Shown here: in pieces, positions 22,610 to 35,831 of the stretch
Numbering within the stretch: position 1 is the stretch's first letter
Layout: each line of letters opens with the position of its first letter
Assembly: GCA_020724845.1 (NCBI GenBank)
Contig: DYGE01000003.1
Location: 1,377-65,376, forward strand
Direction: 5' to 3'
DNA: 64,000 nucleotides
DNA from: Candidatus Paceibacter sp.
GTDB lineage: Bacteria > Patescibacteriota > Minisyncoccia > UBA6257 > 02-FULL-45-10c
Notes under the pieces: generated by a model
Told to the model about the DNA's origin: nothing
The model's database searches: none
The model's input: only the letters and a program-made list of their open reading frames with translations
Position numbers and translations under genes: made by a program

Positions 22610-22707
22610 AAACTTGTTGCAACCTTGCGTAATTTCTTATATCATATAAAAATATTGAAAATTCAATATATATTCCCCGGTAGCTCAGCGGTAGAGCGGC
22701 GCGCTGT

Positions 22708-23274
22708 GAATAACTAAGTTTGTCTTTTCTGGTATAATCAATTGTGTATGCCAGAAAGGAGAACATATGCCGACCGTGCTGAATATTTAAAACAGGCTGT
22801 TACCAAGAGGAGAAGAAAACTCAAGGTGATGCTTGTAGAATATAAAGGCGGTAAATGTAGGATTTGTGGCTACAAGAAGACCCATTGGGCGCTTGATCTT
22901 CATCATATCGATGCCTCCAAAAAAGAATTTGGATTATCAGTACGAGGATTAACGCGCTCTTGGGAAAAGCTTAAACAAGAGGCAGATAAATGCATACTTG
23001 TTTGTGCTAATTGCCATAGAGAAATACACGCAGGCATTACGCAGCCTTCTAAAGTAATTTAGATTGAATAACGAGGTGAATTCGGTGAAGTCCATCTATT
23101 GATGGATAATACCGAGCCAAGGTCGCTTTAGGCGACAAGGTGTAGAGACTATCCCACAAGGGAGTAGGTTGTAGTCCCCAAAAAGATTTACATCCGAAGC
23201 GCCTCGCCACGTGATCTAAGAAGATTTTACGTGGATGATATAGTCCACCCCTATTAGTAATAGTAGGATAAGTG
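22708..23274 (+). other. Group I intron inserted in the tRNA anticodon loop. It carries an HNH homing-endonuclease ORF.
   Basis: Conserved group I core elements: R-like GTAGAGACTATCC (23142-23154) and S-like GATGATATAGTCC (23236-23248), which pair to form P7. The 5' exon ends in U and the intron ends in G. The exact splice points are ambiguous by 2 nt. Confidence 0.6.
22742..23062 (+). CDS. HNH homing endonuclease encoded in the intron
   Basis: CRICGY...LDLHHID...CANCHREIH: a complete HNH motif with two CxxC zinc knuckles. Confidence 0.8.
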   Translation: MCMPERRTYADRAEYLKQAVTKRRRKLKVMLVEYKGGKCRICGYKKTHWALDLHHIDASKKEFGLSVRGLTRSWEKLKQEADKCILVCANCHREIHAGITQPSKVI

Positions 23275-23300
23275 TAACGCGACGGTCGTAGGTTCGATCC

Positions 23301-24893
23301 CTACCCGGGGAGCCATATCGGACGAACGGAGTCAAAAGCTCCGTTTTTCTGTTTATTCATGCCACTTACAGCAGGTTCTAACCGAGAATTCTCTGCAACA
23401 CCCACGAATGAGACATTTTGCAGGGGTATCAGGTATTTGGCCATATCAATACGCAGTTTTTTGTCTTGTAGGAGAAGGTTCGAACCGAGCGCTTTTAGAA
23501 TGCTTCGTTTGGTTTCTATGCTTCCTTCCTGGTAGGCGGCGTGCGCATATTTGGCAAAGGTGAAAATCTTTTCTGCGTTCTCCATCCAGGCGTCTACACG
23601 GCGGTCCGTATCCTGTAAAAGTCCCTGGAATTTGTTTTTCTGCTTCTCAAGCTCCCTGCGTTTGCTCTTGTATTCGTCTTCGGTGATCTCGCCAGCCGCG
23701 CGCATGTCAATCAAATTGTCCAGCTTGCTCACTACGATGTTGTAGTTTCTTTGCTGGGTTTCCAAGATTATGTTGCGGTCGCTTGATTCTTTGGCGTTTT
23801 CTTCCTGAAGCCACTTCATGGCCCAGCTATGAAAGTTAGCGGGTATCTCAATGCTTTTCAAAAGTTCGGCAACCTGGCTTTCCAATGCTTTTATTTCCAG
23901 CGACCGCTGGGAGCAGGGACCTTTGCGCTTGGTGCAGTGGTAGTAGAGGTAATAATGGACGTTGCCGTTTTTCGGCCGTTTGACCTTGTCCTCGGCCGTC
24001 ACGTAACAGCCGCACTCTCCGCAGTGGATCATACCCGTATAGGCAAACTTTTTCTGACGTGGGCGTTGCTTTCCTTTTCTGCCCAGGTGCGCCTGGATGC
24101 GGTCGAAGTCTTCTTCGGTGATCATGGCGGGATGCCCGCCTTTGTACCAGTTGCCTGAACCTTTCGGGTATTCAAATTCGCCATAGTAAAATGGATCGGA
24201 CATGGCGCGGTAGAAGGTGCTCTTGGCCATCTTCTTTCCATTTGGCATGCGCAAACCCCATTCTTCGGTAGCAATCTTGTGAATTCTGGGAGCGGTGTAC
24301 ACGCCCTCCAGAACCATGGCGAACATCCGCTTTATTAAATCAAACCGCTTCGGGTCTTTTTTGATAATCTTTTGTCCTTTCTTGCGGTCTGGCGTATTCA
24401 TATAGCCGACAGGCGCAGGTCCTGGATACCAGCCGTTCTCGGCTTTGCGCTTGAGCTCCCGCTTTACATTTACAGAAAGGTCGCGGATAAACTGGTTGGC
24501 CATGCCGAGCTCAACGCTCATCATAAGTACGTTGTCGGTCGGGTAATAACTGCGGTCGTAGGTTTTGATATGGCGGATGACGTTTTGCTGGAGCATCCAG
24601 CTGATGTTTCCGCCGTCCACGGGATTGCGGGCCAGACGGTCCAGCTTCCAGCAGAGAATTCCCTGGGCTTCGCCGTTGGTAATCCGCGTGAGCATTTCGT
24701 TGAAAACAGGACGGCCTGGTGCTTTGGCTGACTGGGATTCGGTAAAGATGTGAACGATATTGATACCGTCACGCTGGGCCATTTCTTTGAGCACATCCAG
24801 CTGGGAATCAATGGAGGCTACCTGGCGGTCTTCCGCTTCCGATGATTTGCGGGCGTAGAGAAAGTATTTGAGTTGTGGCGTTAATCTCTCCAT
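23301..24893 (-). CDS. Large serine recombinase (phage-type serine integrase). Its 3' end overlaps the tRNA 3' end.
   Basis: N-terminal YARKSS catalytic Ser box and resolvase domain, recombinase domain, zinc ribbon (CGECGC...HCTKRKGPC), C-terminal coiled coil. 530 aa. Confidence 0.85.
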   Translation of the reverse strand: MERLTPQLKYFLYARKSSEAEDRQVASIDSQLDVLKEMAQRDGINIVHIFTESQSAKAPGRPVFNEMLTRITNGEAQGILCWKLDRLARNPVDGGNISWMLQQNVIRHIKTYDRSYYPTDNVLMMSVELGMANQFIRDLSVNVKRELKRKAENGWYPGPAPVGYMNTPDRKKGQKIIKKDPKRFDLIKRMFAMVLEGVYTAPRIHKIATEEWGLRMPNGKKMAKSTFYRAMSDPFYYGEFEYPKGSGNWYKGGHPAMITEEDFDRIQAHLGRKGKQRPRQKKFAYTGMIHCGECGCYVTAEDKVKRPKNGNVHYYLYYHCTKRKGPCSQRSLEIKALESQVAELLKSIEIPANFHSWAMKWLQEENAKESSDRNIILETQQRNYNIVVSKLDNLIDMRAAGEITEDEYKSKRRELEKQKNKFQGLLQDTDRRVDAWMENAEKIFTFAKYAHAAYQEGSIETKRSILKALGSNLLLQDKKLRIDMAKYLIPLQNVSFVGVAENSRLEPAVSGMNKQKNGAFDSVRPIWLPG

Positions 24894-24895
24894 GG

Positions 24896-25660
24896 TTATT
24901 GCCGATAATTTTGCAGCGCTTCGCTTTCCAAGGCGTCATAGTAAAGACCGATCGTGTTCTCGTAGCTGAAGATAAACCCGCTTTCGGTAATACCGATCTG
25001 GATAAACGGCGCACGGTCTGCTTCTACACCTTCTGGTAGCAGGTTCTGGTATTCCATGTCATTCCAGGTGAAGAAGTAGTTCGCGCCGTCTGGACCGCCA
25101 GACTTGTCACCGATCTCATACTGGCGGATGTTGCTTGTCAGCTGTTCAAAATCTGGCTCTACCCGCTCAAGAAACTGGAGTACAAGCTTGCTTAATTCGC
25201 CCTGACTTTTAACGTCGCAGGGCTTGTCATCGCAGAATCCGTAGTGTGGTTTGCGGTGAAAGGCAATGACCTTGCCAGTAGCCGAATCTACCTCGGCGGT
25301 TCCGCCCTGATCATCGGTAAAGTTTATTATTTTTTCCTCAACCACTCGGTCTCCGCGGATGCCCTCATAGGTAACCAGGCCAAAGTTCCCAGAACGGCCG
25401 TAGGCGTCTCTTGGTTCGAAGGTAAAGCTGGCACCCTCTGTAATGCCATAGATGCGGTTGGCTACGTCCAGAATGCCACGCAGGGCCTCGGTGGCCTGTT
25501 CTTTTTCTGCCTCGCTTACGGTTTCCCTCTCTTGGGCCACATCACCCGAAAGCGGTGCTTTGTCTGCCGTAAGGCTGTAAATCCCGTAACCTGCCCCAAA
25601 GACCGCAACAAGGGCGATTACGGCGTAAATTATGGTTTTATTTTTCATAAGTGTGTTCAT
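24896..25660 (-). CDS. Hypothetical secreted protein (signal peptide/TM anchor)
   Basis: ORF with a hydrophobic N-terminal helix. 4 nt downstream of the integrase start. Confidence 0.45.
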   Translation of the reverse strand: MNTLMKNKTIIYAVIALVAVFGAGYGIYSLTADKAPLSGDVAQERETVSEAEKEQATEALRGILDVANRIYGITEGASFTFEPRDAYGRSGNFGLVTYEGIRGDRVVEEKIINFTDDQGGTAEVDSATGKVIAFHRKPHYGFCDDKPCDVKSQGELSKLVLQFLERVEPDFEQLTSNIRQYEIGDKSGGPDGANYFFTWNDMEYQNLLPEGVEADRAPFIQIGITESGFIFSYENTIGLYYDALESEALQNYRQ

Positions 25661-25694
25661 TACGTTAATTGTTTAATTTTTCGACCTGGTGAGC

Positions 25695-25780
25695 GTGGGT
25701 CGCAGGCTCTAACAGCAACATGGTCCCAAGCCCGAAAGAAGTCAAACAATACAAAAAGGGACAGCCAGAGCCTGCGACCC
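25695..25780. repeat. 15-bp perfect inverted repeat (TGGGTCGCAGGCTCT / AGAGCCTGCGACCCA) with a 56-nt loop
   Basis: Direct reading of both arms. Located just upstream of the 24896-25660 gene start. Confidence 0.6.
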
Positions 25781-26026
25781 ACAGTCTTGGAATGCACGAA
25801 GGCACCCAATTGTGGAGGATGGCTGCCCCTTTCAGCCCGCAATTGGGCTTCAAAAGAAGCACAGCCATCGTGCAATATTCCAAAACTGTAGGTCGCACCT
25901 TTATAATGGCACTTACAGCGTTATTTTTCAATGTTTTTATGCGGGCGAAGGTAAAAACCTGTACCGATTTTGTCCGCCTTTTATCCGATTTATTTTGGTC
26001 GCTTTTAATGGTCATAAGGTTGTTTC

Positions 26027-26176
26027 TTACCGATGTTTTACCGATGGTCTACCGATGGTTGATAGGGTCGAAATACCTGAAGTTTCCCTGAAGTCTTCCT
26101 GAAGTTTTGGTGAAGAATTGGTGAAGTTCTGGTGCAACCCAGACTGCCGAATCCACCGAAGTTTTACCGAAGTCCA
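26027..26176. repeat. Iteron-like array: 3x TTACCGATG at 11-bp spacing, then five GAAGT-core repeats at exact 11-bp spacing (26079, 26090, 26101, 26112, 26123) plus two more (26158, 26169)
   Basis: Direct reading. 11-bp helical phasing is characteristic of Rep-binding iterons or phased transcription-factor sites. Next to the Rep-like winged-helix gene. Confidence 0.6.
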
Positions 26177-26251
26177 TAATTGTTTGTTTTTGACGCGCTT
26201 TGCGCGTATTACTTATACTTTCTTAATCTTCTTTCTTACTTATATCTCTAC

Positions 26252-26704
26252 TTAATCAGGTGGCCGTAGTGGCTCGCGGTCAAGCGTCATGTTGGTCTCT
26301 GACCGCAGACCACCATGGTCTCTGGTGCCGTGGAGCAGTTTTCTGTTTACGCGGTACATGGTTGTTGGCCACAGACCGCTCTCAGTCCGCACTTTCCTCG
26401 TCTCAATCAGGCCCAGACTTCTAAGCTTCCGCCTGGTTCTGACGCAGGTACTGCCCCCGAATCCATAGGCGGCAAAGCCTAATACCTTACCCTCTTTGGT
26501 TTCGAAGCTCTTATCCGTATGCCAGAACCAGCCATCCTTAGTCGCAAAGCGGTTAGAAAGACTACATAATCTGAACAGAAAATCCCGCTCAGCGTGACTG
26601 AGCTTCTTTCGCAGAGTTTCATTATCGTAGACAAGATGAGGCGCGAAGAAACAGTTTTCGTGCCTATTCTCTGATTGTTGTTTGTGATCCATAGTTTTCA
26701 TCAA
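26252..26704 (-). CDS. Winged-helix DNA-binding protein. Possible replication initiator or regulator of the element.
   Basis: ERDFLFRLCSL...CVRTRRKLRSLGLIETRK winged-helix-like segment. Adjacent to the iteron array. Confidence 0.4.
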   Translation of the reverse strand: MMKTMDHKQQSENRHENCFFAPHLVYDNETLRKKLSHAERDFLFRLCSLSNRFATKDGWFWHTDKSFETKEGKVLGFAAYGFGGSTCVRTRRKLRSLGLIETRKVRTESGLWPTTMYRVNRKLLHGTRDHGGLRSETNMTLDREPLRPPD

Positions 26705-26972
26705 GTATTTCAGTCACTTTGTTGCCAACCGCTTCTTCCATAGCTCTGCCGACCTCAGAGCTGATCGGATGGAAGGTATTCAGGTTCTTTTCGCCGACTT
26801 TCCGTGTCGGGTAAACCAGGCGGTATCCTGTACCGTCCAGGCGGGTATAGACAGCGACCGACCCGATCCAGAATTTCCCGTCAATCACGAAGGAGACAAA
26901 GCCCACGTGGCCGTCTCTGGGTTTGACGGGTACAAACTGAATTTCACTGATTTTTGTTGGTGTCTGGCTCAT
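26664..26972 (-). CDS. SpoVG-like nucleic-acid-binding protein
   Basis: IQFVPVKPRDGHVGFVSFVIDGKFWIGSVAVYTRLDG..YRLVYPTRK......FHPI...R..EEAV aligns with the SpoVG family pattern. Confidence 0.5.
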   Translation of the reverse strand: MSQTPTKISEIQFVPVKPRDGHVGFVSFVIDGKFWIGSVAVYTRLDGTGYRLVYPTRKVGEKNLNTFHPISSEVGRAMEEAVGNKVTEILDENYGSQTTIRE

Positions 26973-27174
26973 GGTGTTCCTGTTGTTTTTCCATGAATTT
27001 CTGATAGGCAGGTTTGTAAAGCTGGATCAGATTATTCGCATGCAAAGAAGCCTCGGCCTCGGACAATTCCACGCCGTATTTTTTTCGGTAAATCTCTTTG
27101 AATTCTTTGATGGCTTCTTTGGGTAACATAAAAGCGGAGCTCCCGAAGGAGTCCCGCTTTTTGCCTCTGACCAA
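26944..27174 (-). CDS. Small hypothetical protein
   Basis: ORF only. Overlaps the spoVG-like gene start. Confidence 0.3.
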   Translation of the reverse strand: MVRGKKRDSFGSSAFMLPKEAIKEFKEIYRKKYGVELSEAEASLHANNLIQLYKPAYQKFMEKQQEHHEPDTNKNQ

Positions 27175-27597
27175 CAGAACACGGCCCGTCTATTGGGAGA
27201 GGAAATCGAACCCCCAAGGGTTATTGGCCGTGTTTTGTATTGGTTTGTGAAAGAAGCCTTGGTCTTTATCTGCAACGAAAAAAGACCGCTGCTTCTCGCT
27301 CTCGGTTTCAAATCATGGGTCCGCCCGAAGACGGATAATCTGATCTCATCGAGAGCAGAAGCAGTGGTCCTTTGTGGTCCCAATATGTCAGGACGTCTTG
27401 ATCACTTCTTCTGCCGTACAAATCTTACATGCGACAGTCGTATATCGTACCTGTATTATATGCCGCACAGAAAACTGCGGCAAGACCCCCGCATTGTGGA
27501 AAAGCCACACTGACAAAATCTGACAAGGACTGACGCAAAATTACGCTCTGACAGATTTGAACACTTCTGACATAAGCGCTATAATGAAATTAATCCT

Positions 27598-27789
27598 ATG
27601 AAAGACAGACTGCTCACAGTCAAGGAGGTTGCTGATTACCTACGTGTCAGCGAACGCTCTGTGCTTCGATATATAGAAGCAGGCAGACTTAATGCGTCCA
27701 AGGTCGGATGGTGGCGGATCAGGCAGTCTGATTTGGATGACTTTCTGAAAAGAACCAGTCGTCCGCAAAAAAGAAAACGCCATGGCTGA
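27598..27789 (+). CDS. Helix-turn-helix DNA-binding protein (excisionase/MerR-like HTH_17). Candidate excisionase, or a controller of the downstream methyltransferase.
   Basis: LLTVKEVADYLRVSERSVLRYIEAGRL HTH. Its stop overlaps the Vsr-Dcm start by 8 nt. Confidence 0.65.
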   Translation: MKDRLLTVKEVADYLRVSERSVLRYIEAGRLNASKVGWWRIRQSDLDDFLKRTSRPQKRKRHG

Positions 27790-29422
27790 TGTAATGACAA
27801 CCGCACAGCGGTCTTACAATATGTCCCGTATCCGCTCGCAGGATACAAAACCCGAAATCCAGCTTCGGAATCTTCTGATTTCAAACGGAATCAGTGATTT
27901 TGAAATTACACCTAAACATATCCCAGGGCGTCCTGATTTTTATTTCTCAAACAGAAAAACAGCTGTGTTTGTAGACGGATGTTTCTGGCATGGTTGCAAA
28001 GACTGTTACCAGGCTCCAAAGACCAATGCGAAGTTCTGGAAGAAAAAGGTCAGCACAAACACTGCAAGAGACCAGGTAGTTAATCGGGAATTAAAGTCTC
28101 TTGGAGTAAAAGTAATCAGGGTTAAAGAACACAGCCTGAAATCTGCGCCTGACAAAACTATAAAGCACATTGAATCTAAACTATCACAGGATCAGCGACC
28201 GAAGGTTCTTGATCTTTTTGCTGGCGCTGGAGGATTATCGGAGGGTTTTATGAGGGCAGGTTGTGAAATGATAGGCCACATTGAGGTTGATAAAAATTCC
28301 TGCGAGACTTTGACAACGCGTATGATATATCACGCGCTTAAGGCAAGAGGAAAATACGAAGATTATAAAAAATATGTTTTGGGGAAACTGAGCAGAGAAG
28401 AACTAGTTGAGAAATACGGTCTGCAGAGAGATCGGAATTCGGTGATATGTGCTGAAATTGGAAAGGATAATTATAAAAAACTTATAAGAGAAATACGTGA
28501 ACGACTCAACGGTCAGCAACTGGATATCATTGTCGGCGGTCCTCCGTGCCAGGCTTACTCGTATATCGGGCGTGCCAGAGACGAAAACAGAATGCGGCGT
28601 GATTCGCGTAATTTTTTGTACAGATACTATGTTGAATTCCTGAAAGCCTTTCAGCCGAAGATTTTTGTATTTGAAAATGTCCCTGGACTGATAAGTGCTG
28701 GTAAAGGCAGGTATCTGAAAGACATGCGGCGCCTTATGAAAAAGGCTGGTTATGACACTGGATACAAAATTCTTAACGCATCTGATTTTGGTGTGCCACA
28801 GAGCAGAAAAAGAGTTCTGCTGGTGGGGTGGAATAAATACTCAAAGATGGAGGAATATCCCGATTTTCCAAAAGTAAAAAGGCAGTATAAGGTCAAAGAT
28901 TTCTTTGTTGGGCTTCCAAAGATTAATTCTGGCGAAGGAAAAACAATACAACGATTCTCAAAAAGAAGTGATCTGCTTGAAAAGCTCAGAATCATGAATC
29001 CAGAATTTGGCCTGCTGCTGGATCATCTGTCGCGTCCCAATACCAAACAGGACCTTGAGATTTATCGACTGGCCGTTACGGCAAAGAAAAAAGGTCAGAA
29101 CATAAAATATAATGAGCTGCCAAGGCGTTTGAAGACACACAGGAATGAAGACGGTTTTCTCGACCGATTTAAAGTTGTAGATGCCAGCGCAGAAGGGTCA
29201 CATACCATAGTTGCTCACATAGCCAAGGATGGTCACTTCTATATTCATCCTGATCTGAGACAAAACAGATCTATTTCTGTCAGAGAGGCGGCGAGATTAC
29301 AAACGTTTCCTGATGACTATAAATTTGAAGGTACCCGAGGTCCCCAATTTCGCCAGATTGGAAATGCTGTTCCACCTATGCTGTCAGAGGTGATCGCGAG
29401 GGAACTAATTAAATACCTGTAG
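27782..29422 (+). CDS. Fusion protein: very-short-patch-repair (Vsr) T/G mismatch endonuclease fused N-terminally to a C5-cytosine DNA methyltransferase (Dcm-type)
   Basis: Vsr part: RSYNMSRIRSQDTKPE, GRPDFYF, FVDGCFWHGC. MTase part: FAGAGGLSEGF (motif I), GGPPCQAYS (IV), ENVPGL (VI), QTFPDDY...GNAVPP (IX/X). Confidence 0.85.
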   Translation: MADVMTTAQRSYNMSRIRSQDTKPEIQLRNLLISNGISDFEITPKHIPGRPDFYFSNRKTAVFVDGCFWHGCKDCYQAPKTNAKFWKKKVSTNTARDQVVNRELKSLGVKVIRVKEHSLKSAPDKTIKHIESKLSQDQRPKVLDLFAGAGGLSEGFMRAGCEMIGHIEVDKNSCETLTTRMIYHALKARGKYEDYKKYVLGKLSREELVEKYGLQRDRNSVICAEIGKDNYKKLIREIRERLNGQQLDIIVGGPPCQAYSYIGRARDENRMRRDSRNFLYRYYVEFLKAFQPKIFVFENVPGLISAGKGRYLKDMRRLMKKAGYDTGYKILNASDFGVPQSRKRVLLVGWNKYSKMEEYPDFPKVKRQYKVKDFFVGLPKINSGEGKTIQRFSKRSDLLEKLRIMNPEFGLLLDHLSRPNTKQDLEIYRLAVTAKKKGQNIKYNELPRRLKTHRNEDGFLDRFKVVDASAEGSHTIVAHIAKDGHFYIHPDLRQNRSISVREAARLQTFPDDYKFEGTRGPQFRQIGNAVPPMLSEVIARELIKYL

Positions 29423-29426
29423 AATC

Positions 29427-30914
29427 ATGAAAGTATTAAAGACAAATCCAGGCGCCAAACGTTTGATGGAAAGCCTGCGCAATATGGGTTATGACTGCAG
29501 TACTGCTGTGGCTGATTTGGTTGACAACAGTATTGTTGCGCATGCTTCTGAGATTTACATCGATATAATTCCGAAGCAGGATGATCACCCTGCAGCAATT
29601 GTTATTGCCGACAATGGTAATGGAATGGACAGGAATGAGCTTCATGAGGCAATGCGTTTCGGCGCTTTTCAGGAATATTCCCCAGATGATCTGGGTAAAT
29701 ATGGTCTTGGTCTCAAGACTGCTTCCCTCAGCCAGTGTCGTACTCTGACCGTTTCGTCCAAAGGAAAAAGTATTCGTGGCAAAAGACCGAGGCGCCACTG
29801 TATGCGCTGGGATATTGACCATGTTTATAAAACCGACGACTGGAATCTTCTTGAGTTATCCGACGATGAGCTTCTTCCTTGGGAGCAGAAACTTATTGAG
29901 CATGATGTCGTTAAAGAAAACGGCACCGTAGTATTGTGGACTGATCTTAATGATGCCCTGCCCCTTCTTTCCTCTGAAAATGCCTTGGACCGTGAGAGGT
30001 TTCTTGCTCACCTCATCGATGAAATCAGTAGTCATTTACGAATGGTATTTCATCGGTTTATGCAGGGTGCTGTTACGGGAAGACGGAAACTGGATATTTA
30101 TGTTTGCGGAGAGCAGCTGATTCCGTGGGACCCCTTCTGTCGAAATGAATCAACCCGTGAGCTGGAAATTATCCGTATTCCTGTTATTTCAATGGAGCCT
30201 GACGGTTCAAAATTAAAAGAAACGGTTACTGTCAGTCCTTTTGTTTTGCCACGAGATGATGAATTTTCATCTCCAGCTGCCTGGAGAGAAGCTTCTGGAC
30301 CCAAAAACTGGAATCAGCAGCAGGGCTTTTATTTTTATCGCAATAACCGTCTGATGCAGGCAGGTGGCTGGAACCGTATAAGAACCTCGGATGAACACAC
30401 AAAGCTTCTCAGGGTGGCAGTAGATTTCCCTGGAGAACTTGACCGCGCTTTTTCGATAAATATCACAAAAATGCGGGCAAAGATTCCGTCTGAAATAAGA
30501 CAGGATATTAAGTCCCATGTAAGTGCATGGGTGAAAATAGCGAGAGCCCGCTATGACGGTCTGTCTTCGAGAGCCAGTAAGCAGCGCCAGAAGCAACAGA
30601 GGTCAAAGACCCCCGAAAAGGGCAAAGCGGTTCAGGAACAGGTGAAGAATTCAGTCACGATGGGCCGTATGATTTTTCACAGAAGCGAAAACGCACGGGA
30701 CATTGTGATTACTGAGGACCGAAAAAGAAAACTTATAAATATATCAGTTCCTGTTTATCACGAGCTGGCAGGCATTTTTACCAATGGTAACAAGTGGGAT
30801 CATCACAAGTTTTCGATGATCACCCTTAGTATTCTTGAGGCAGTAGCGGCAAAAAAGCTTCCATCCGACCGTATTCCAGTCAGCACGCTCAGGAAAATTT
30901 ATAAAGAGTTATGA
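29427..30914 (+). CDS. GHKL/Bergerat-fold ATPase (HATPase_c_3-like)
   Basis: DLVDNSI (N box), IADNGNGMD (G1), GKYGLGLKTAS (G2). Starts 4 nt after the MTase stop. Confidence 0.7.
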   Translation: MKVLKTNPGAKRLMESLRNMGYDCSTAVADLVDNSIVAHASEIYIDIIPKQDDHPAAIVIADNGNGMDRNELHEAMRFGAFQEYSPDDLGKYGLGLKTASLSQCRTLTVSSKGKSIRGKRPRRHCMRWDIDHVYKTDDWNLLELSDDELLPWEQKLIEHDVVKENGTVVLWTDLNDALPLLSSENALDRERFLAHLIDEISSHLRMVFHRFMQGAVTGRRKLDIYVCGEQLIPWDPFCRNESTRELEIIRIPVISMEPDGSKLKETVTVSPFVLPRDDEFSSPAAWREASGPKNWNQQQGFYFYRNNRLMQAGGWNRIRTSDEHTKLLRVAVDFPGELDRAFSINITKMRAKIPSEIRQDIKSHVSAWVKIARARYDGLSSRASKQRQKQQRSKTPEKGKAVQEQVKNSVTMGRMIFHRSENARDIVITEDRKRKLINISVPVYHELAGIFTNGNKWDHHKFSMITLSILEAVAAKKLPSDRIPVSTLRKIYKEL

Positions 30915-33424
30915 TTAAAACGCTTTCAGACGCAGTCACAATTGTTGAATTTCTGATTTCCCGTCAGGGGAAAACAGTCGAAGAAGCCGTAGAAGAGGCT
31001 TCTGTTCCAATGCATCTTCGGGAGCAGGTAATAAAATATTTTGCTCTGCCTCTTGAAATCACGCCGCCCGATCTCCTCGTAAGCACTGAAAAGATTCCCC
31101 GTTGTGATCCAGACCCCGATTCTGTCCAGCAGTATTTCGGAGCTTTCCAGAGATTTCTTATCGATGAACGACACTGGCCAAAGTCAACCATTGATACCCT
31201 TGCAGATACCTCTCTCGACCTTGTCAGGCGGTTCCCCAAACCAGATGCGGTACAGTATTTTCAGGGGCGCGGCCTTGTAGTCGGGCACATACAAAGCGGC
31301 AAAACCGCCAACATGGCCGCACTGATAGCCCGTGCGGCTGATGAAGGGTATAAGCTCTTTATTGTTTTGGGAGGGTTCTGGAAAGATTTGCGGGCCCAGA
31401 CACAGAGAAGGCTGGATCAGGAAGTTGTCGGCGGTTCTGACAACGATGCAGATGGTCCATATGTTCAGCATGATTCTGAAATACCCCGATGGGTAAGACT
31501 TACCCGTTCTGGTCTTGAGGGTGACTTCAGGCCAGGTCCAAATGATCTGAACCCGCAGACACCAAAACTTGCTGTCATTAAGAAAAACAAAAGAATAGAA
31601 ACTCTGGTGAACTGGCTGAAAAAATCTCCCGTATCACTGGGTGAATTACCTGCAATTGTTATTGATGATGAGGCAGATCAGGGGTCTATAGATACAAATT
31701 ACGGACGTTACGATGATGACGGCGAGCAGATTGATCCATCTGCTACCAACAGGCGCATCCGAGAACTTCTTGGTATTCTTCCGAAATGTGTCTATGTCGG
31801 TTTTACTGCAACCCCCTTTGCCAACGTACTTATTGATGCCTCAACAGAGGAAGATTTGTATCCACGAGACTTTATCGCCACCCTCCCAGAGCCGCCAGGT
31901 TATTTCGGCCCGAGGAAGCTTTTTGGATTGGGGCTTGATCCTTCTGATCTTTCTCCTGTGCCTGCTCAAAGACCTCCGCTTGACCTGATTCGGCACATCA
32001 ACGAAGAAGATCTTGATGAAATTGATAAAGTAATCAATGAAGGCGGGTCTTGCCCTAGGATTCTTTCAGACGCACTTCTGTCTTTTGTGCTCGCAAGCTG
32101 CGCTCGTCTTGCACGGGGACATAACCGTGACCGTGATCATTCCAGTATGCTGGTCCATACATCTCACAGAACCGAGCCACACCGAATATTTGCTGACACG
32201 ATAAACCAGGAATTGCAGCTCATAAAGAATGCAGCTGCCCGACCCAAGTCCTTCCCCGAACTTATGGCCCGTGCCCGTGAGATATGGAATTCAGATTTTC
32301 GCAGAGTTACCGCAGAGCAGGATGACCCCGAACTTCAGGAGTACGATTTTGAAACAGTCTGGAAGTTTGCCAAGACACTGACAGAGTCGATTGAGGTTAA
32401 GGTACTTAACAGCACTTCGGACGATGAGCTGGACTATACTGGGCACGCAAAAAGATATGTGGTTGTGGGCGGAAACCGCCTTTCCCGCGGGCTTACCCTG
32501 GAGGGACTGTGCGTAAGCTTATTCACCAGAGATACAAATCAGTACGATACCCTTCTGCAGATGGGAAGATGGTTCGGCTATCGACCTCAATATCATGATC
32601 TGACAAGAATATATGTGGAATCACAGCTTGCTGAACGTTTTGCAGAGCTTGCCCGTGTTGAAGAAGAAATGAGGGCAGACCTGTCCAAGTATTCACAGCA
32701 GCCAGACCCCCCGACGCCCCTCCAGCTTAAACCTGTTATCCGCAGTCACCCGACAATGATGGTGACTTCCCGTATGAAAATGGGTGCTGGGAGGCCTCTC
32801 TATATTTCTTTTCAGAATACTTTGCAGCAGACAGTTGCTTTTCCGATGGAAAACAAATCACTGCTGCAAAACAATCTTGAGGCGGCAAAAACGTTTATCT
32901 CTGGACTTCCTGATAATCTCCAGAGTGCTTCTGATGAAGGTACGCATATATGGACCGATGTCCCGTCAGAAAAGATTCTGGAATTTCTTCAGGCTTATGA
33001 ATTCAGCCGTGAGGCTCGGGATGTTAACCGCCAGAATCTGGTCAGTTATATTTCCCGACAGAATAACAGGGGCGAGCTTGTATTATGGGACGTGGTTATC
33101 CCGCGCGGAAATCCTAAGCTGGAACCTTTCAAATGGACGAAAAATATACTGACACGCAAAATTACACGTGTGCCGATGACAAGTAAATCTATCAGGGTTT
33201 TGTCGAGCCCTGCTGATATCAGGAACTGGCAACAAGTAGCATACCGCGACCTTAAAGATCCCAAACGGGGATGCCTGATGCTTTATTTGATTGACAGAAA
33301 ATCTGATCTGGGGAGCGATGTAAAGTTTTTTCCGAATACTTCCGATGCCGAAGATATTCTTGGTCTCGTTCTTGCTTTCCCCGAATCAAAATCTAATGAA
33401 ACGATTGAATATGTCTCACAATGA
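30911..33424 (+). CDS. Large P-loop NTPase of the Z1-domain type (methyltransferase-associated)
   Basis: GHIQSGKTANM Walker A and IVIDDEADQGS Walker B. 837 aa. ATGA start overlaps the upstream stop. Confidence 0.6.
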   Translation: MIKTLSDAVTIVEFLISRQGKTVEEAVEEASVPMHLREQVIKYFALPLEITPPDLLVSTEKIPRCDPDPDSVQQYFGAFQRFLIDERHWPKSTIDTLADTSLDLVRRFPKPDAVQYFQGRGLVVGHIQSGKTANMAALIARAADEGYKLFIVLGGFWKDLRAQTQRRLDQEVVGGSDNDADGPYVQHDSEIPRWVRLTRSGLEGDFRPGPNDLNPQTPKLAVIKKNKRIETLVNWLKKSPVSLGELPAIVIDDEADQGSIDTNYGRYDDDGEQIDPSATNRRIRELLGILPKCVYVGFTATPFANVLIDASTEEDLYPRDFIATLPEPPGYFGPRKLFGLGLDPSDLSPVPAQRPPLDLIRHINEEDLDEIDKVINEGGSCPRILSDALLSFVLASCARLARGHNRDRDHSSMLVHTSHRTEPHRIFADTINQELQLIKNAAARPKSFPELMARAREIWNSDFRRVTAEQDDPELQEYDFETVWKFAKTLTESIEVKVLNSTSDDELDYTGHAKRYVVVGGNRLSRGLTLEGLCVSLFTRDTNQYDTLLQMGRWFGYRPQYHDLTRIYVESQLAERFAELARVEEEMRADLSKYSQQPDPPTPLQLKPVIRSHPTMMVTSRMKMGAGRPLYISFQNTLQQTVAFPMENKSLLQNNLEAAKTFISGLPDNLQSASDEGTHIWTDVPSEKILEFLQAYEFSREARDVNRQNLVSYISRQNNRGELVLWDVVIPRGNPKLEPFKWTKNILTRKITRVPMTSKSIRVLSSPADIRNWQQVAYRDLKDPKRGCLMLYLIDRKSDLGSDVKFFPNTSDAEDILGLVLAFPESKSNETIEYVSQ

Positions 33425-34451
33425 AATTACATTCGGAGGTATCCTGCAGCCGCTGGTTGATCGCCTGACCCGTACTCCGCAAAAAAGAGGCAAACTTTCG
33501 GGTCAGGAGGTCGTCATCCCGAGAAAGGATGTGGGAGTAATTATCGCTGTTGATGATGAGAATAATATTCACCTTCTTGTTTCTCCAGCGCCTTCAGACC
33601 TGGATCATCTTTCAAAACTTGATCTGAAAGGATTAAAAATTGATGTCAAAGACTGGGCAGTTGCCGAAAAACCAGCTCAAAGCTATCTTGATATTTTCTG
33701 TACAACAGGCTCACTTCCTTCGTTCAGGCGCCCATTCCTTCGTTTTGCTGAGGATGTACTGTATGAAGTTTCTAAGTCACAAACACAACCTTCTGATGCA
33801 GTATACAAAACCTGTATAAGATGGAGAAAATTCTGGAGCCCTGATGTTAAAACAGAAATAACAAGAGAGTGGATTCAGGGTATGTTTGGAGAGCTTAGCT
33901 TTCTTTCCAGTCTGATAGAACGGTTCGGGTCTGGTGTTGTGGGCAGCTGGAGCGGGCCTGTCGGTGCAGATCATGATTTCCAGTCGGGAACAAAGCTGGC
34001 AGTTGAGGTAAAAACATCCACCGAAACACCTTTTCGTATTATCTGCAATATTCATCAGCTGGATGATTCTTTGTTCAAAACACTTTTTATAGCCTGTTAT
34101 CGCATTACTGCAACAGAAAAAGGACGGACTCTGTCAGAACTTGTAAGAGAAATCGAACAGCTTATGGGTGATGACGAGACTGCCTTGGATGTATTTTATG
34201 AACGCCTCATGGCGGGAGGTTATACCCGCCAGCTTGAGTCCGCTTACGATAATTTCAGGCTGGAGACTGATGATGTTGTTATGTTCCGTGTAGATAATAA
34301 CTTTCCGAAGCTTACCGAGAAAAGTTTTGTACGTCCGCCTGATCATCGTATCAGCAGCATAAGATATATTCTCGAACTTGCAGGCCTGAAAGAGCTTTCC
34401 TTTAATGATGTGTCAGGTGAGTTAAACATATTTGCTAATGAAGAAAAATAA
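33411..34451 (+). CDS. Putative PD-(D/E)XK-like nuclease (possibly AIPR-like)
   Basis: GELSFLS...GADHDF...LAVEVKT resembles an E...D...E-x-K nuclease core. Overlaps the upstream gene by 14 nt. Confidence 0.4.
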   Translation: MSHNEITFGGILQPLVDRLTRTPQKRGKLSGQEVVIPRKDVGVIIAVDDENNIHLLVSPAPSDLDHLSKLDLKGLKIDVKDWAVAEKPAQSYLDIFCTTGSLPSFRRPFLRFAEDVLYEVSKSQTQPSDAVYKTCIRWRKFWSPDVKTEITREWIQGMFGELSFLSSLIERFGSGVVGSWSGPVGADHDFQSGTKLAVEVKTSTETPFRIICNIHQLDDSLFKTLFIACYRITATEKGRTLSELVREIEQLMGDDETALDVFYERLMAGGYTRQLESAYDNFRLETDDVVMFRVDNNFPKLTEKSFVRPPDHRISSIRYILELAGLKELSFNDVSGELNIFANEEK

Positions 34452-35231: not shown

Positions 35232-35525
35232 ATGCTTAAACGATACATTCAATATCTCAAAGACAACCCGCAAGGGTACTTGTTCAAGCGGAAGCTCTAC
35301 GGTTGGGGCTGGGTGCCTGTGAGGTGGCAGGGCTGGCTTGTGGTGACCATAGGAGTCGCTATTGTTTCTCTTGGTTACTGGATCGGAGAGACCGATGATG
35401 CGCCTGGCATGATACTTCTCGGTCTTGCGCTTGGGGTTGGATTTATATTCGTCTTCGGCTACTGGAAGGGAGAAAAACCGCGCTGGCAGTGGGGCTTACC
35501 GAAAAAATATGATGAAAAGAAATAA
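35232..35525 (+). CDS. Small membrane protein (two TM helices)
   Basis: ORF with hydrophobic segments. Confidence 0.4.
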   Translation: MLKRYIQYLKDNPQGYLFKRKLYGWGWVPVRWQGWLVVTIGVAIVSLGYWIGETDDAPGMILLGLALGVGFIFVFGYWKGEKPRWQWGLPKKYDEKK

Positions 35526-35814
35526 TATAAAACAATTTATTGTAAGCGCATTTGTCTTGTATTTCTCCTTTGGTTTTATCTTTGCCGTATATGCATATTC
35601 TCACGACTTGCGGACATTCAGATGTGTTGATCCGACCGCGCCGCACGGATACATTGGCATGGGTAGCGGTAGTTTTCAGAACCCCGATCCTGAACGTTGT
35701 ACCCGACGAGGATTTGAATTGCGGTCTATCGCAACTATTCCGTTCTTTACTGTCGCTGGTCCTGTGATTCTTGCGGGACGTTACACTCATGCGCTGTTTT
35801 ATCAATCTGATTAA
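35509..35814 (+). CDS. Small membrane protein. The start is taken at MMKRNN. The track ORF 35425 extends further upstream.
   Basis: ORF with a TM helix after the start. Overlaps the previous stop by 17 nt. Confidence 0.35.
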   Translation: MMKRNNIKQFIVSAFVLYFSFGFIFAVYAYSHDLRTFRCVDPTAPHGYIGMGSGSFQNPDPERCTRRGFELRSIATIPFFTVAGPVILAGRYTHALFYQSD

Positions 35815-35831
35815 ACGCAGTAAGATAAAAA

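What the first reader, a model, noticed from the sequence alone, without database searches (positions are those of the whole stretch)
23301..27600. Serine-integrase element inserted at the tRNA 3' end, with its own replication and regulation module
A 530-aa large serine recombinase gene ends inside the tRNA 3' end on the opposite strand. Behind it are a secreted protein, a long inverted repeat, an 11-bp-phased iteron array, a winged-helix Rep-like protein, a SpoVG-like protein and an HTH excisionase-like gene facing the defence operon. Together they suggest an integrative element that may also replicate episomally. The downstream boundary is undefined. The run of secreted-protein genes at 35232-39289 may or may not be cargo.
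Basis: partly seen in the sequence, partly recalled or inferred. Interest (0 to 1): 0.65.

Follow-up and report, generated by a model that had tools for sequence, protein, structure and literature searches.

The report
Serine-integrase defence island at tRNA-Asn
A mobile DNA island carrying an anti-phage system has inserted at the very end of an asparagine tRNA gene using a serine integrase, an enzyme type that usually targets other sites, and relatives show that its docking site imitates the tRNA's end.

Summary
An intact 530-aa large serine recombinase (LSR, 23301-24893, minus strand) ends 12-15 nt inside a convergent tRNA. That tRNA is tRNA-Asn(GUU), split by a 567-nt group I intron with an HNH gene, so ARAGORN missed it.

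Behind the LSR lie:
- a membrane-anchored protein;
- a 590-nt gap with inverted repeats and 11-bp-phased iterons;
- a winged-helix protein of the HTH_36/RepA_N class;
- a SpoVG-like protein and a 76-aa protein;
- divergent promoters and an HTH_17 gene heading an Mza-type defence operon.

The LSR family is very large (more than 7000 hits). In 13 of 21 fetched relatives the gene abuts a tRNA 3' end, mostly Asn.

A natural attB/attL/attR triad (L026 versus L023) places the crossover in GGGGAG, tRNA positions 68-73. The element's far (P) arm mimics the tRNA 3' end, with the T-arm-like motif 5 bp further out. That is the known LSR attP/attB geometry.

The window has no recognisable P arm, so attR is undefined. 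Composition puts the foreign tract at 23.3 to about 41.6-42.3 kb.

Integration is well supported. Episomal replication is plausible but unproven.

The parts
22674..22707 (+). tRNA-Asn(GUU) 5' exon (positions 1-35, ends ...CUGU)
   Evidence: Sequence. Identical 5' halves in eight intronless tRNA-Asn genes. The acceptor strand TCCCCGG pairs with CCGGGGA at 23305-23311.
22708..23274 (+). Group I intron in the anticodon loop (between U35 and U36). It carries an HNH homing-endonuclease-like ORF at about 22742/22748-23062.
   Evidence: Rfam RF00028 at 22993-23267, 59.8 bits against a gathering score of 50. HNH Pfam E=0.001, below the cut-off. A homologous intron and HNH ORF sit at the same position in L003.
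23275..23315 (+). tRNA-Asn 3' exon (to G73 at 23312) plus CCA (23313-23315, supplied by the element). This is the B arm of attL. The inferred crossover lies within GGGGAG at 23307-23312.
   Evidence: The attB/attL/attR triad in L026 and L023.
23313..23346 (+). P' arm of attL, including GGAC at +10 to +13 from the inferred centre and a terminator-like hairpin at 23324-23346 that serves the tRNA
   Evidence: Terminator scan. The homologous P' arms and hairpins in relatives, each at a fixed 70 nt from motif 2.
23374..23383 (.). GGTTCTAACC palindrome (motif 2), inside the recombinase 3' coding region and conserved as DNA
   Evidence: It is read as R(L/F)EP in some homologues and VRT in others, which are different frames of the same DNA. 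It is retained in the integrase-less L023 mini-element.
23477..23486 (.). GGTTCGAACC palindrome (motif 1), 103 nt from motif 2; encodes the invariant LGSNL
   Evidence: The same pair at 100-114 nt spacing occurs in L002, L006-L009, L013, L021, L022 and L041.
23301..24893 (-). Large serine recombinase (integrase), 530 aa, intact
   Evidence: Pfam Resolvase, Recombinase and Zn_ribbon_recom. phrog_95 integrase, E=2.6e-67. Catalytic motifs conserved. Nearest solved structures are SPbeta SprA/YokA and A118 Int.
24896..25660 (-). p254: membrane-anchored or secreted protein of unknown function. Its stop is 2 nt from the recombinase start codon.
   Evidence: It has 42-44% identical homologues at the same position in L006, L007 and L009. 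No significant Pfam, PHROG or PADLOC family.
25661..26251 (.). Noncoding gap. It holds nested inverted repeats (25695-25710/25767-25782 and 25773-25793/25877-25897) and 11-bp-phased iterons (26027-26060, 26076-26134, and a further copy at 26155-26170). It is a candidate origin or operator.
   Evidence: Positionally equivalent 11-bp arrays with element-specific units occur in L006, L007 and L009.
26252..26704 (-). p150: winged-helix DNA-binding protein of the HTH_36/RepA_N/DnaD_N class, a candidate iteron-binding initiator or regulator
   Evidence: phrog_270 replication initiation protein, E=2.3e-4. Of 59 family members, 16 hit HTH_36 and 3 hit RepA_N. AF2 model pLDDT 83.5. Top Foldseek hits are RepA_N initiators 4pql, 4pt7 and 5kbj, but weak.
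26664..26972 (-). SpoVG-like protein (102 aa)
   Evidence: Pfam SpoVG E=1.7e-4, below the cut-off. 66% identical homologues in L006, L007 and L009. The L007 copy scores 29.3 bits against a cut-off of 29.6.
26944..27174 (-). p76: small protein, the most widely co-occurring partner of this recombinase family; function unknown
   Evidence: tblastn hits upstream of the recombinase in L002-L010, L013, L014 and L017. No family match.
27175..27597 (.). Divergent control region. One sigma-70-like promoter faces the core module (-35 at 27483, -10 at 27455, minus strand). Another faces HTH_17 and the cargo (27557-27585, plus strand). CTGACA repeats lie at 27509-27575.
   Evidence: These are consensus matches only; function is inferred.
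27598..27789 (+). HTH_17 (excisionase/MerR-like) protein. It is the first gene of the cargo operon and overlaps the next gene by 8 nt.
   Evidence: Pfam HTH_17 E=4.2e-16. PHROG excisionase/regulator. PADLOC mad1 E=4e-7. Homologues head different cargo in L009 and L016.
27782..35214 (+). Defence cargo: a Vsr-Dcm fusion (27782-29422), MzaB-like GHKL ATPase (29427-30914), MzaC/Z1 (30911-33424), MzaD/DUF4420 PD-(D/E)XK (33345-34451) and a NOV_C protein (34432-35214)
   Evidence: Pfam. PADLOC MzaB 4.7e-59, MzaC 1e-97, MzaD 4e-12, DrmMII-type methylase 4e-163.
35232..41614 (+). Tract of small, mostly secreted or hypothetical genes of unresolved status. Compositionally it looks foreign. It could be further cargo or older accreted material. 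No attR was recognised.
   Evidence: Codon-usage log-likelihood is element-like for 8 of 10 genes between 35.2 and 42.9 kb, against 0 of 24 untrained host genes. The k-mer distance decays to baseline by about 41 kb. Sua5/YrdC at 42991 is host. No P arm was found.

Best explanation
Window 23313 to at least 35214, and probably to about 41.6-42.3 kb, is an integrative genomic island of a large, mostly CPR/Patescibacteria-associated family. These elements are mobilised by a large serine recombinase that targets the extreme 3' end of tRNA-Asn(GUU).

**Integration.** The recombinase recombined an element site (attP) with the tRNA gene's 3' end (attB). The crossover fell within GGGGAG, tRNA positions 68-73. 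The tRNA body stays host-derived. The element supplies CCA, a replacement terminator hairpin and the recombinase gene's own 3' tail, which reads passively into the tRNA on the opposite strand.

**Site recognition.** The tRNA acceptor/T-arm strand acts as the B half-site, with GTCC-type and TCGAACC motifs. In relatives the element's distal P half-site imitates it, with the TCGAACC motif 5 bp further from the centre. This is the canonical LSR attP/attB zinc-ribbon-domain offset.

**Backbone and cargo.** The backbone is a leftward operon: p76, a SpoVG-like protein, the p150 winged helix, an iteron gap, p254 and the recombinase. A rightward operon starts with an HTH_17 regulator and carries exchangeable defence cargo, here an Mza-type system with a Dcm-Vsr fusion.

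**Shown and inferred.** Shown: the anatomy, family-wide tRNA adjacency, the attB/attL/attR triad in relatives, the 5-bp motif shift, synteny of the core and the compositional break. Inferred: p150 binds the iterons and supports replication of the excised circle; HTH_17 or p76 controls directionality or expression; and this particular copy may no longer excise precisely, because no P arm (attR) is recognisable.
For: - The LSR domains and catalytic motifs are intact.
- tRNA adjacency is family-wide. By ARAGORN, eight relatives have a convergent tRNA-Asn abutting or overlapping the recombinase end (seven) or 231 nt beyond it (L021). One more is intron-split (L003). Gln, Trp, Ser and Thr occur in more distant members, giving 13 of 21 loci.
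- Of 120 homologue C-termini, 43 read into a tRNA acceptor/T-arm (LRGxDSN), 20 are attP-type (LRLxDxVRT), and 38 stop at the junction.
- The junction lies exactly 70 nt after motif 2 in ten loci.
- L007 and L009 are 86-89% identical from the base after GCCA, although their tRNAs differ.
- Triad: L026 attB is ...CCCGGGGAG|CAAGTGAGTGAAAT. L023 is the same locus with a 727-nt insert whose far end is CAGGTTCTAACGTCATTCAGTAAGGGGAG|CAAGTGAGTGAAAT.
- Six independent P arms (L034, L035, L037, L039, L040, L041) place T(C/A)GAACC at +19 to +25, against +14 to +20 in tRNAs. This matches Rutherford et al. 2013, PMC3783163.
- There is no tRNA-derived direct repeat in any locus, as expected for an LSR.
- The core is syntenic at 42-67% aa identity in L006, L007 and L009, with different cargo.
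- Empty relatives lack the recombinase.
- The k-mer and codon-usage break falls at 23.3 kb.
- For replication: iterons are conserved in position and phase; p150 belongs to the HTH_36/RepA_N class; relatives carry Phage_rep_O, HTH_36, or primase plus AAA_25 at that position.
Against: - No attR or P arm is detectable anywhere in the window. The PWM maximum is 9.3 bits, against 29-41 for true sites and up to 13.8 in shuffles. The far boundary and present-day excision competence are therefore unknown.
- No empty site or circular junction was found for this strain. Exact-protein look-ups returned only the same arrangement.
- The attB/attL/attR triad and the P arms come from relatives, not from this element. 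The sister elements L006, L007 and L009 also show no P arm within 10 kb.
- p150 is a single winged-helix domain. Fold matches to initiators are weak and generic wHTH regulators score similarly, so replication is not demonstrated.
- No attP-type contig was demonstrably circular. Some may be joints between tandem elements rather than episomes.
- The positions of the centre of symmetry and the crossover dinucleotide are inferred from sequence symmetry only.
Confidence: 0.85

Rival explanations
1. This is a stranded remnant. The island integrated by the LSR route but has lost its distal attachment site. It is now a fixed chromosomal defence island, with the recombinase and core retained but unable to excise precisely.
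For: - No P arm is found in 40 kb downstream.
- Genes from 27598 to 39289 are packed on one strand with 15-50 nt spacers, which leaves no room for a roughly 50-bp att site.
- Two samples carry the identical arrangement.
Against: - The recombinase and all core genes are intact and conserved.
- attL is canonical.
- Sister elements sit in hosts with different tRNAs at 86-89% identity, so the lineage was recently mobile.
- The P arm of this sub-lineage may simply diverge from my matrix, although sub-lineage homologues P0004 and P0008 show VRT/FRT-type tails.
Confidence: 0.4
2. The iteron and winged-helix module is a transcriptional or segregation control circuit (operator repeats bound by a repressor-like wHTH), not a replication origin. 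On this reading the element never replicates autonomously.
For: - p150 is only about 140 aa, a single domain, and lacks the C-terminal domains of RepA_N or lambda O initiators.
- Generic PadR, MarR and TFE-type wHTH proteins score like the initiators.
- The repeats lie between two co-directional gene blocks where an internal promoter is plausible. A conserved TTGACT block precedes p254.
Against: - Sequence relatives of p150 hit HTH_36, RepA_N and DnaD_N rather than repressor families.
- Relatives of the element carry unambiguous replication genes at this position.
- 11-bp phasing with element-specific units is typical of iteron origins.
Confidence: 0.35
3. The foreign tract is composite. A recent LSR element (23.3-35.2 kb) abuts older accreted cassettes (35.2-41.6 kb). 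The tRNA-Asn 3' flank would then be a repeated landing pad, and the secreted-protein genes would be remains of earlier insertions with eroded P arms.
For: - Arrays of six or seven co-oriented P-arm sites, each with one or two genes between, occur in L035 and L036. Pairs occur in L034 and L037.
- RsgA sits as a cassette there and also lies just downstream of tRNA-Asn in L026.
- A homologue of window gene 37792-38571 lies 4 kb downstream of the tRNA in L026.
- Codon usage over 35.5-41.6 kb is element-like.
Against: - No P-arm relic is detectable between the window's genes.
- Spacers there are too short for att sites.
- Secreted-protein genes may have a biased composition for reasons unrelated to origin.
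Confidence: 0.35
4. The recombinase-tRNA juxtaposition is ancestral or coincidental gene packing in a compact genome, not an insertion.
For: CPR genomes are compact. The ORF tail overlapping the tRNA is a passive read-through.
Against: - Relatives with the same tRNA lack the recombinase.
- The junction is at a fixed register across dozens of hosts.
- There is an insertion/empty-site pair.
- There is a compositional break.
Confidence: 0.02

Closest known systems
Large serine integrases of temperate phages and ICEs (A118/LI, Bxb1, phiC31, SPbeta SprA, TP901-1)
   Same: - Same domain architecture: Resolvase, Recombinase and zinc ribbon with a coiled-coil region.
- No long att duplication.
- Short att sites in which the distal (ZD) motif sits 5 bp further out in attP than in attB (PMC3783163).
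- The integrase gene lies adjacent to one junction.
   Different: - Only 21-27% identical to any annotated phage or plasmid LSR.
- The target is the 3' terminus of a tRNA gene rather than a protein-coding gene or intergenic site.
- One attP arm is a tRNA 3'-end mimic.
- Only one arm of each site shows a conserved motif.
- Two extra conserved TCGAACC palindromes lie 70 and 173 nt inside the integrase gene.
- No RDF has been identified.
tRNA-targeting genomic islands with tyrosine integrases (P4-like and Islander-type islands, PICIs/SaPIs, tycheposons)
   Same: - Insertion at a tRNA 3' end with preservation of tRNA function.
- Integrase next to the tRNA.
- A small backbone with a replication-type module plus exchangeable defence or niche cargo.
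- Possible tandem accretion at the same tRNA.
   Different: - The recombinase is a serine, not a tyrosine, enzyme.
- No direct repeat of the tRNA 3' segment bounds the island.
- No packaging or helper-exploitation genes were found.
Iteron-controlled replicons (RepA_N plasmids such as pSK41, lambda O/ori, SaPI rep-ori)
   Same: Short directly repeated units phased at one helical turn lie next to a gene for a winged-helix protein of the initiator class.
   Different: - p150 is a single domain of about 140 aa.
- No helicase, primase or loader gene is present in this element.
- The repeats are 11-bp units of two or three types rather than 17-22-bp iterons.
- Function is untested.
Mza candidate defence system (PADLOC) / Dcm-linked MutL-like ATPase-Z1-DUF4420 operons
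   Same: MzaB, MzaC (Z1) and MzaD (DUF4420) homologues occur in order behind a cytosine-5 methylase.
   Different: - The methylase is fused to Vsr.
- The last gene is a NOV_C protein rather than an AIPR-type MzaE.
- An HTH_17 gene heads the operon.
Group I introns in bacterial tRNA anticodon loops (cyanobacterial tRNA-Leu(UAA) and tRNA-fMet; proteobacterial tRNA-Arg and tRNA-Ile) (from my own knowledge)
   Same: A self-splicing-type intron sits in the anticodon loop, with the 5' exon ending in U. It matches Rfam RF00028.
   Different: - The host tRNA is Asn(GUU), with insertion between U35 and U36.
- It carries an HNH ORF.
- It is found in CPR-type genomes, next to the LSR attachment site, in two loci.

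Membership tests
Large serine recombinase (integrase) family | N-terminal resolvase catalytic domain with the nucleophilic serine and conserved Arg/Asp residues | tested here: met
   Pfam Resolvase E=1.7e-19. YARKSS...R..SIDSQ and LDRLARN are invariant across 20-60 homologues.
Large serine recombinase (integrase) family | C-terminal recombinase domain plus zinc ribbon domain with an embedded coiled coil | tested here: met
   Pfam Recombinase 3.7e-8 and Zn_ribbon_recom 1.6e-7. CGECG...YYHCTKR cysteines are conserved. Matches SPbeta and A118 integrase structures across residues 15-496 and 231-424. The coiled coil itself was not modelled.
Large serine recombinase (integrase) family | Short att sites without long duplication; ZD motif 5 bp further out in attP than in attB | tested here: met
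   No duplication. The TCGAACC motif lies at +14 to +20 in tRNAs and +19 to +25 in six P arms of relatives. The rule was confirmed in PMC3783163. This was tested on relatives; the window's own attP/attR is not available.
Large serine recombinase (integrase) family | A cognate recombination directionality factor for excision | not testable with these tools
   Candidates are p76 (family-wide neighbour) and HTH_17. No sequence family defines LSR RDFs.
Tyrosine-integrase tRNA island (P4/Islander type) | Tyrosine recombinase gene at the tRNA-proximal end | tested here: not met
   The only recombinase is a serine enzyme.
Tyrosine-integrase tRNA island (P4/Islander type) | Direct repeat of the tRNA 3' segment at the distal boundary | tested here: not met
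   There is no second copy with up to 3 mismatches. The best sliding match is 15 of 20, on the wrong strand and at chance level. The longest shared word is 8-13 nt across 13 loci.
Iteron-type replicon | Array of directly repeated, helically phased initiator-binding sites | tested here: met
   Period-11 arrays at 26027-26060 and 26076-26134. They are conserved in position in L006, L007 and L009. Binding was not tested.
Iteron-type replicon | Adjacent gene for a replication initiator | tested here: inconclusive
   p150 hits phrog_270 at E=2.3e-4. Family members hit HTH_36 (16 of 59) and RepA_N (3 of 59). Fold matches to RepA_N N-domains have E of about 0.02 and TM 0.38-0.49. It is a single domain only.
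Iteron-type replicon | Autonomous replication or extrachromosomal copies | not testable with these tools
   No read-level data are available. No circular contigs were seen among relatives.
Mza defence system (PADLOC) | MzaB (GHKL ATPase), MzaC (Z1) and MzaD (DUF4420) with a DNA methylase | tested here: met
   PADLOC MzaB 4.7e-59, MzaC 1e-97, MzaD 4.2e-12, methylase 3.9e-163.
Mza defence system (PADLOC) | MzaE (AIPR-type) component | tested here: not met
   The last gene hits NOV_C and TmtA C-terminal models only.
Group I intron | Conserved catalytic core (P3-P9) above the Rfam gathering score | tested here: met
   RF00028, 59.8 bits against 50, full model 1-253.
Group I intron | Exon junctions that restore a functional gene; 5' exon ends in U, intron ends in G | tested here: met
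   Joining 22707 (U) to 23275 (preceded by G23274) gives a tRNA-Asn identical in both halves to the intronless L029. Splicing itself was not tested.

The most novel reading that the evidence does not exclude
This recombinase family may use asymmetric attachment sites, in which only one arm of each partner carries sequence specificity. Those arms are the tRNA acceptor/T-arm strand in attB and a 5-bp-shifted tRNA mimic in attP. The other arms (tRNA trailer and terminator in B', a terminator-like hairpin in P') appear to be interchangeable. If so, the attL left after integration (tRNA plus P') still looks like attB. New elements, or integrase-less single-gene cassettes such as the 727-nt L023 insert, could then insert again and again next to the tRNA. 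This would build integron-like arrays of P-arm-delimited cassettes, as seen in L035 and L036. It would be a serine-recombinase cassette-capture system anchored on tRNA-Asn, widespread in CPR bacteria. The two conserved TCGAACC palindromes inside the integrase gene might act as accessory sites.
Probability: 0.25. Interest if true: 0.85.

Novelty: new variant of a known kind. Interest (0 to 1): 0.62.

Why it matters
- **tRNA targeting by a serine integrase.** Serine integrases are prized genome-engineering tools. They are generally described as targeting protein-coding or intergenic sites, while tRNA genes are the classic targets of tyrosine integrases.
- **A near-universal landing pad.** This is a very large, mostly uncultivated-lineage family (more than 7000 homologues). 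It docks at the 3' terminus of tRNA-Asn, and its attP arm imitates the tRNA with the textbook 5-bp ZD offset. tRNA-Asn is conserved in nearly all bacteria.
- **A comparative data set.** It provides one naturally resolved attB/attL/attR triad, six P arms and about a dozen tRNA-side (attL) junctions for studying att-site recognition.
- **Defence-system traffic in CPR bacteria.** The family shows how defence systems (Mza, type I R-M, OLD-family nucleases, AbiE) move among CPR/Patescibacteria, whose mobile elements are poorly known.
- **Cassette accumulation.** If the accretion reading is right, this would be an integron-like mechanism based on a serine recombinase.
- **A new intron host.** The intron-split tRNA-Asn adds a new host tRNA for bacterial group I introns.

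Tried and rejected
1. ARAGORN on the window found no tRNA. The intron explains this, so it is not evidence against the tRNA.
2. Search for a second copy of the tRNA 3' end as attR found none. The best match, 45244-45263 on the minus strand at 15 of 20, is at chance level and in the wrong orientation.
3. Search for attR as the reverse complement of the P' arm gave only chance scores of 15-17 of 26.
4. Three searches used P-arm models: an IUPAC consensus, a sub-motif spacing regex, and a 5-site weight matrix. None gave a hit above shuffles. 40884-40910 (18 of 24) lies inside an ORF and 42334 (GGGTTTGAAC) lacks the rest of the arm. Both were rejected.
5. Empty-site search by exact-protein look-ups of flank genes returned only the same strain.
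6. p97 (35232-35525) was considered as an element-end marker because of a 70% identical homologue in L006. It was rejected because there it sits among CsoR/CopA genes, an IS3 and a second recombinase fragment.
7. L007 was considered as a cargo-free element giving attR at 7293-7467. No P arm is present there, and the upstream RNR and cytochrome-D1 genes may themselves be cargo, so this is inconclusive.
8. A circularity test of attP-type contigs found no terminal overlaps.
9. The viral-contig scan gave one relative without structural genes.
10. Homology searches for p76 and family scans of p254 and p76 were uninformative.
11. Literature searches for a prior description of tRNA-targeting LSR elements in CPR found nothing specific in the held library. 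This does not prove absence.

Full report
**What is in the window.** The ORF at 23301-24893 (minus strand) encodes a 530-aa protein with Resolvase, Recombinase and Zn_ribbon_recom domains. It matches phage integrase family phrog_95 at E=2.6e-67. Against 60 homologues, the catalytic YARKSS...SIDSQ and LDRLARN motifs and the zinc-ribbon cysteines are conserved. It is an intact large serine recombinase (LSR), not a pseudogene.

ARAGORN reports no tRNA anywhere in the window, but the sequence shows two halves of one. A 5' half lies at 22674-22707. A 3' half...GGTTCGATCCCTACCCGGGGAGCCA, lies at 23275-23315. Between them is a group I intron (Rfam RF00028, 59.8 bits) containing an HNH-like ORF.

Eight intronless tRNA-Asn(GUU) genes from metagenomes share the exact 5' half and read ...GCGCGCTGT|TAACGCGA.... 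This fixes the intron at 22708-23274, between U35 and U36. The recombinase stop codon (23301-23303) lies in the T-stem 3' strand. The ORF therefore overlaps the tRNA by 12 nt, or 15 nt counting CCA.

**The module behind the recombinase.** In order, moving away from the tRNA:
- p254 (24896-25660), membrane-anchored or secreted, with no family match.
- A 590-nt gap with nested inverted repeats (16/16 at 25695-25710/25767-25782, and 21 nt at 90% at 25773-25793/25877-25897). It also holds 11-bp-phased repeats at 26027-26060 (three units) and 26076-26134 (about five units).
- p150 (26252-26704).
- A SpoVG-like protein (26664-26972; Pfam E=1.7e-4, below the cut-off).
- p76 (26944-27174).
- A 423-nt control region with divergent sigma-70-like promoters and CTGACA repeats.
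- An HTH_17 gene (27598-27789, E=4e-16), overlapping by 8 nt the first gene of a rightward operon.

That operon encodes a Vsr-Dcm fusion, a GHKL ATPase, a Z1 protein, a DUF4420 PD-(D/E)XK protein and a NOV_C protein. PADLOC assigns these to the Mza candidate defence system: MzaB 5e-59, MzaC 1e-97, MzaD 4e-12.

**Family context.** The recombinase has more than 7000 homologues. The best is 64% identical, and the few named ones come from CPR-type bacteria. It is only 21-27% identical to any annotated phage or plasmid LSR. Its nearest solved relatives are SPbeta SprA and the A118 integrase.

In 21 fetched relatives, the gene ends at or within a convergent tRNA, or at most 231 nt before one, in 13 cases. 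Eight are tRNA-Asn by ARAGORN and one more is an intron-split tRNA-Asn (L003). Gln, Trp, Ser and Thr occur in more distant members.

The relatives' C-termini end in ...LRGxDSNxxP. This is the reverse-strand translation of a tRNA acceptor stem and T-arm, so the ORF tails run passively into the tRNA. Of 120 homologue tails:
- 43 are unambiguous tRNA read-throughs;
- 38 stop within a few codons of the junction;
- 20 belong to a second class, described below;
- 19 fit none of these patterns.

Anchored on a conserved internal motif, the junction falls exactly 70 nt downstream in ten loci. That fixed register is what site-specific recombination should produce.

**Evidence for insertion.**
- Relatives with the same tRNA (L029 is identical; L026 and L030 are close) have no recombinase downstream.
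- L007 and L009 carry sister elements that are 86-89% identical from the base after GCCA for 4.1 kb. Their tRNA bodies, including the 3' acceptor strand, differ. Element DNA therefore starts at the tRNA's 3' terminus.
- The window's core (p76, SpoVG-like, p150, gap, p254, recombinase) is syntenic with L006, L007 and L009 at 42-67% aa identity. The cargo differs. L009 and L016 also have a divergent HTH_17 gene heading other defence genes.
- Other relatives have HTH_36, Phage_rep_O, or primase plus AAA_25 between p76 and the recombinase, and type I R-M, AbiE or DUF499/DUF1156 cargo.
- Tetranucleotide distance from host sequence jumps at 23 kb.
- Leave-one-out codon usage scores all 24 untrained genes left of the tRNA as host-like and the island genes as distinct.

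**Attachment-site architecture.** No locus has a tRNA-derived direct repeat. That excludes the tyrosine-integrase pattern.

The second class of homologue tails (LLRLxD(D/N)(V/I)RT) led to loci L034-L041. In these, the recombinase 3' end is followed by a tRNA mimic rather than a tRNA. In recombinase orientation it reads GTCC..TTGCT|CCGCnnGCTGGACGAnGTTAGAACCTG.

I take the centre of symmetry between inverted GTCC (-13 to -10) and GGAC (+10 to +13). On that basis, the T-arm-type motif T(C/A)GAACC sits at +14 to +20 in real tRNAs and at +19 to +25 in six independent mimics. Rutherford et al. 2013 established that LSR zinc-ribbon-domain motifs occupy positions 16-24 in attP half-sites and 11-19 in attB half-sites (PMC3783163). 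The mimic therefore behaves as a P arm and the tRNA as a B arm.

A weight matrix built from five P arms then revealed a natural experiment. L026 and L023 are syntenic on both sides at 80-88% identity.
- L026 reads ...CCTACCCGGGGAG|CAAGTGAGTGAAAT. This is an empty attB.
- L023 has a 727-nt insert immediately after GGGGAG.
- The far end of that insert reads CAGGTTCTAACGTCATTCAGTAAGGGGAG|CAAGTGAGTGAAAT. This is attR.

The crossover therefore lies within the shared GGGGAG, tRNA positions 68-73. In the window that is 23307-23312, so the encoded CCA and the terminator hairpin at 23324-23346 are element-supplied.

**What remains unresolved in the window.** The same matrix, an IUPAC consensus, spacing regexes and a reverse-complement search all fail to find a P arm anywhere in the 64 kb. 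The best score is 9.3 bits, against 29-41 for true sites. Exact-protein look-ups returned only the same strain from two samples.

Housekeeping genes resume at 42991 (Sua5/YrdC). Codon usage is element-like for 8 of 10 genes between 35.2 and 42.9 kb and host-like from 42348 on. The k-mer distance returns to baseline by about 41 kb.

The foreign tract is therefore 23.3 to about 41.6-42.3 kb. Three readings of 35.2-41.6 kb remain open: cargo of the same element, older accreted material, or compositionally odd host genes. This copy may also be unable to excise precisely.

**Replication claim.**
- p150 has weak hits to phage replication-initiator PHROGs (2.3e-4).
- An exhaustive profile search found 71 cluster representatives. 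Of 59 aligned members, 16 hit HTH_36, 3 hit RepA_N and 3 hit DnaD_N.
- The AF2 model (pLDDT 83.5) is a winged helix. Its top Foldseek matches are RepA_N initiator N-domains, including an iteron complex (4pql, 4pt7, 5kbj). These matches have E of about 0.02 and TM 0.4-0.5, and generic wHTH regulators score close behind.
- The 11-bp arrays recur in the equivalent gap of L006, L007 and L009 with element-specific units. That is how iterons co-evolving with a cognate binder behave.

Together with the replication genes in relatives, post-excision replication is plausible. It is not shown, and a purely regulatory role is a live rival.

**Unexpected observations.**
- The palindrome GGTTC(G/T)AACC occurs twice in the recombinase 3' coding region, 103 nt apart (23374 and 23477). 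It has the same spacing across the family. It is read in different frames (LGSNL; R(L/F)EP or VRT), so it is conserved as DNA. It is also retained in the integrase-less L023 insert.
- L035 and L036 carry six further co-oriented P-arm sites, 0.6-1.2 kb apart. One or two genes lie between each pair, and a hairpin precedes each site. L034 and L037 have pairs of sites.
- B' and P' arms both consist of a trailer plus a terminator-like hairpin without a conserved motif. One reading is that attL still resembles attB, so that new elements or single-gene cassettes insert repeatedly next to the tRNA. On that reading, the attP-type joints are P'|P junctions in tandem arrays rather than episomes.
- No attP-type contig was circular.

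**Verdict.** It is a new variant of a known kind. The enzyme is an LSR with canonical att geometry, but it has an unusual tRNA-terminus target and a tRNA-mimicking attP arm, and it belongs to a very large, largely undescribed family. I found no prior description in the searchable literature, which does not prove there is none.

Noticed in passing
window 22708-23274 (HNH ORF about 22748-23062); L003 11630-11920: tRNA-Asn(GUU) is interrupted between U35 and U36 by a 567-nt group I intron encoding an HNH endonuclease-like protein. A homologous intron (68-92% nt identity in blocks, homologous HNH ORF) sits at the same position in L003, again next to an LSR element. Eight other tRNA-Asn genes with the same 5' half are intronless. 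A literature search found no bacterial tRNA-Asn group I intron in the held library.
   Followed up: partly
window 23374-23383 and 23477-23486; same pair in L002, L006-L009, L013, L021, L022, L041: Two copies of the palindrome GGTTC(G/T)AACC lie 100-114 nt apart (103-104 nt in most loci) inside the recombinase 3' coding region. They are read in different frames in different homologues, so they are conserved as DNA. They resemble the tRNA T-arm and the P-arm motif. Their function is unknown; they might be accessory recombinase sites.
   Followed up: partly
L035 at 180, 745, 1949, 2623, 3455, 4693 and 11578 (L036 likewise); L034 at 11590 and 14908; L037 at 6806 and 7794: Arrays of co-oriented P-arm-like sites (TTTCT|CCACGCACTGGACGACGTTAGAACCTG), with one or two genes per interval, including an RsgA-like GTPase. 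The layout is integron-like. It may reflect tandem accretion next to tRNA-Asn.
   Followed up: partly
L023 (tRNA orientation) 2604-3330 versus L026 6046/6047: A 727-nt insertion with both att arms, a single 201-aa ORF and no recombinase. It is either a miniature non-autonomous element or a deletion derivative. It provides a clean attB/attL/attR triad.
   Followed up: yes
window 10553-22609: About 12 kb of metal and oxidative-stress genes (ABC-3/ABC transporter, Fur, YibE_F, Fe/Mn SOD, Cu P-type ATPase, DsbD_TM, DUF1573) lies between the RNR gene and tRNA-Asn. In relatives L026 and L030, FtsA-FtsZ-RNR is followed by the tRNA within 0.2-1.3 kb. Codon usage of this stretch is host-like. L006 carries CopA/CsoR/DsbD-like genes on the element side of its tRNA-Asn.
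   Followed up: partly
window 43748-45088: A Band_7/SPFH gene with a strikingly high GC3 (0.78). It produces a local GC peak of 0.59 at 44-45 kb, unlike all its neighbours (0.36-0.63).
   Followed up: no
window about 31421-31494 (inside the Z1/MzaC gene): Three independent Logan contigs from two samples all end within this 75-nt stretch (L031 at 31494, L033 from 31468, L032 from 31421). This suggests an assembly-graph branch, from a repeat or from strain variation inside the defence gene.
   Followed up: no
window 27509-27575: CTGACA repeated five or six times at spacings of roughly 10-19 bp, next to the divergent promoters. It is a candidate operator for HTH_17 or p76.
   Followed up: no
L003 5375-5501 and L004 18377-18492: LOOT RNA (Rfam RF03000, 79-84 bits) occurs near two related elements. 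None is present in the window.
   Followed up: no
L006 4-1011 and 6110-7266; L004 19144-20490: Second serine-recombinase genes or fragments, and an IS3-family transposase, lie within or beside related elements. This indicates composite or nested mobile DNA at these loci.
   Followed up: no
window 25665-26015 (minus strand): Gene callers annotate a 116-aa ORF across the inverted-repeat region of the noncoding gap. It has no family match, and L009 lacks most of the corresponding stretch in the alignment of the gap. It is probably not a gene.
   Followed up: partly
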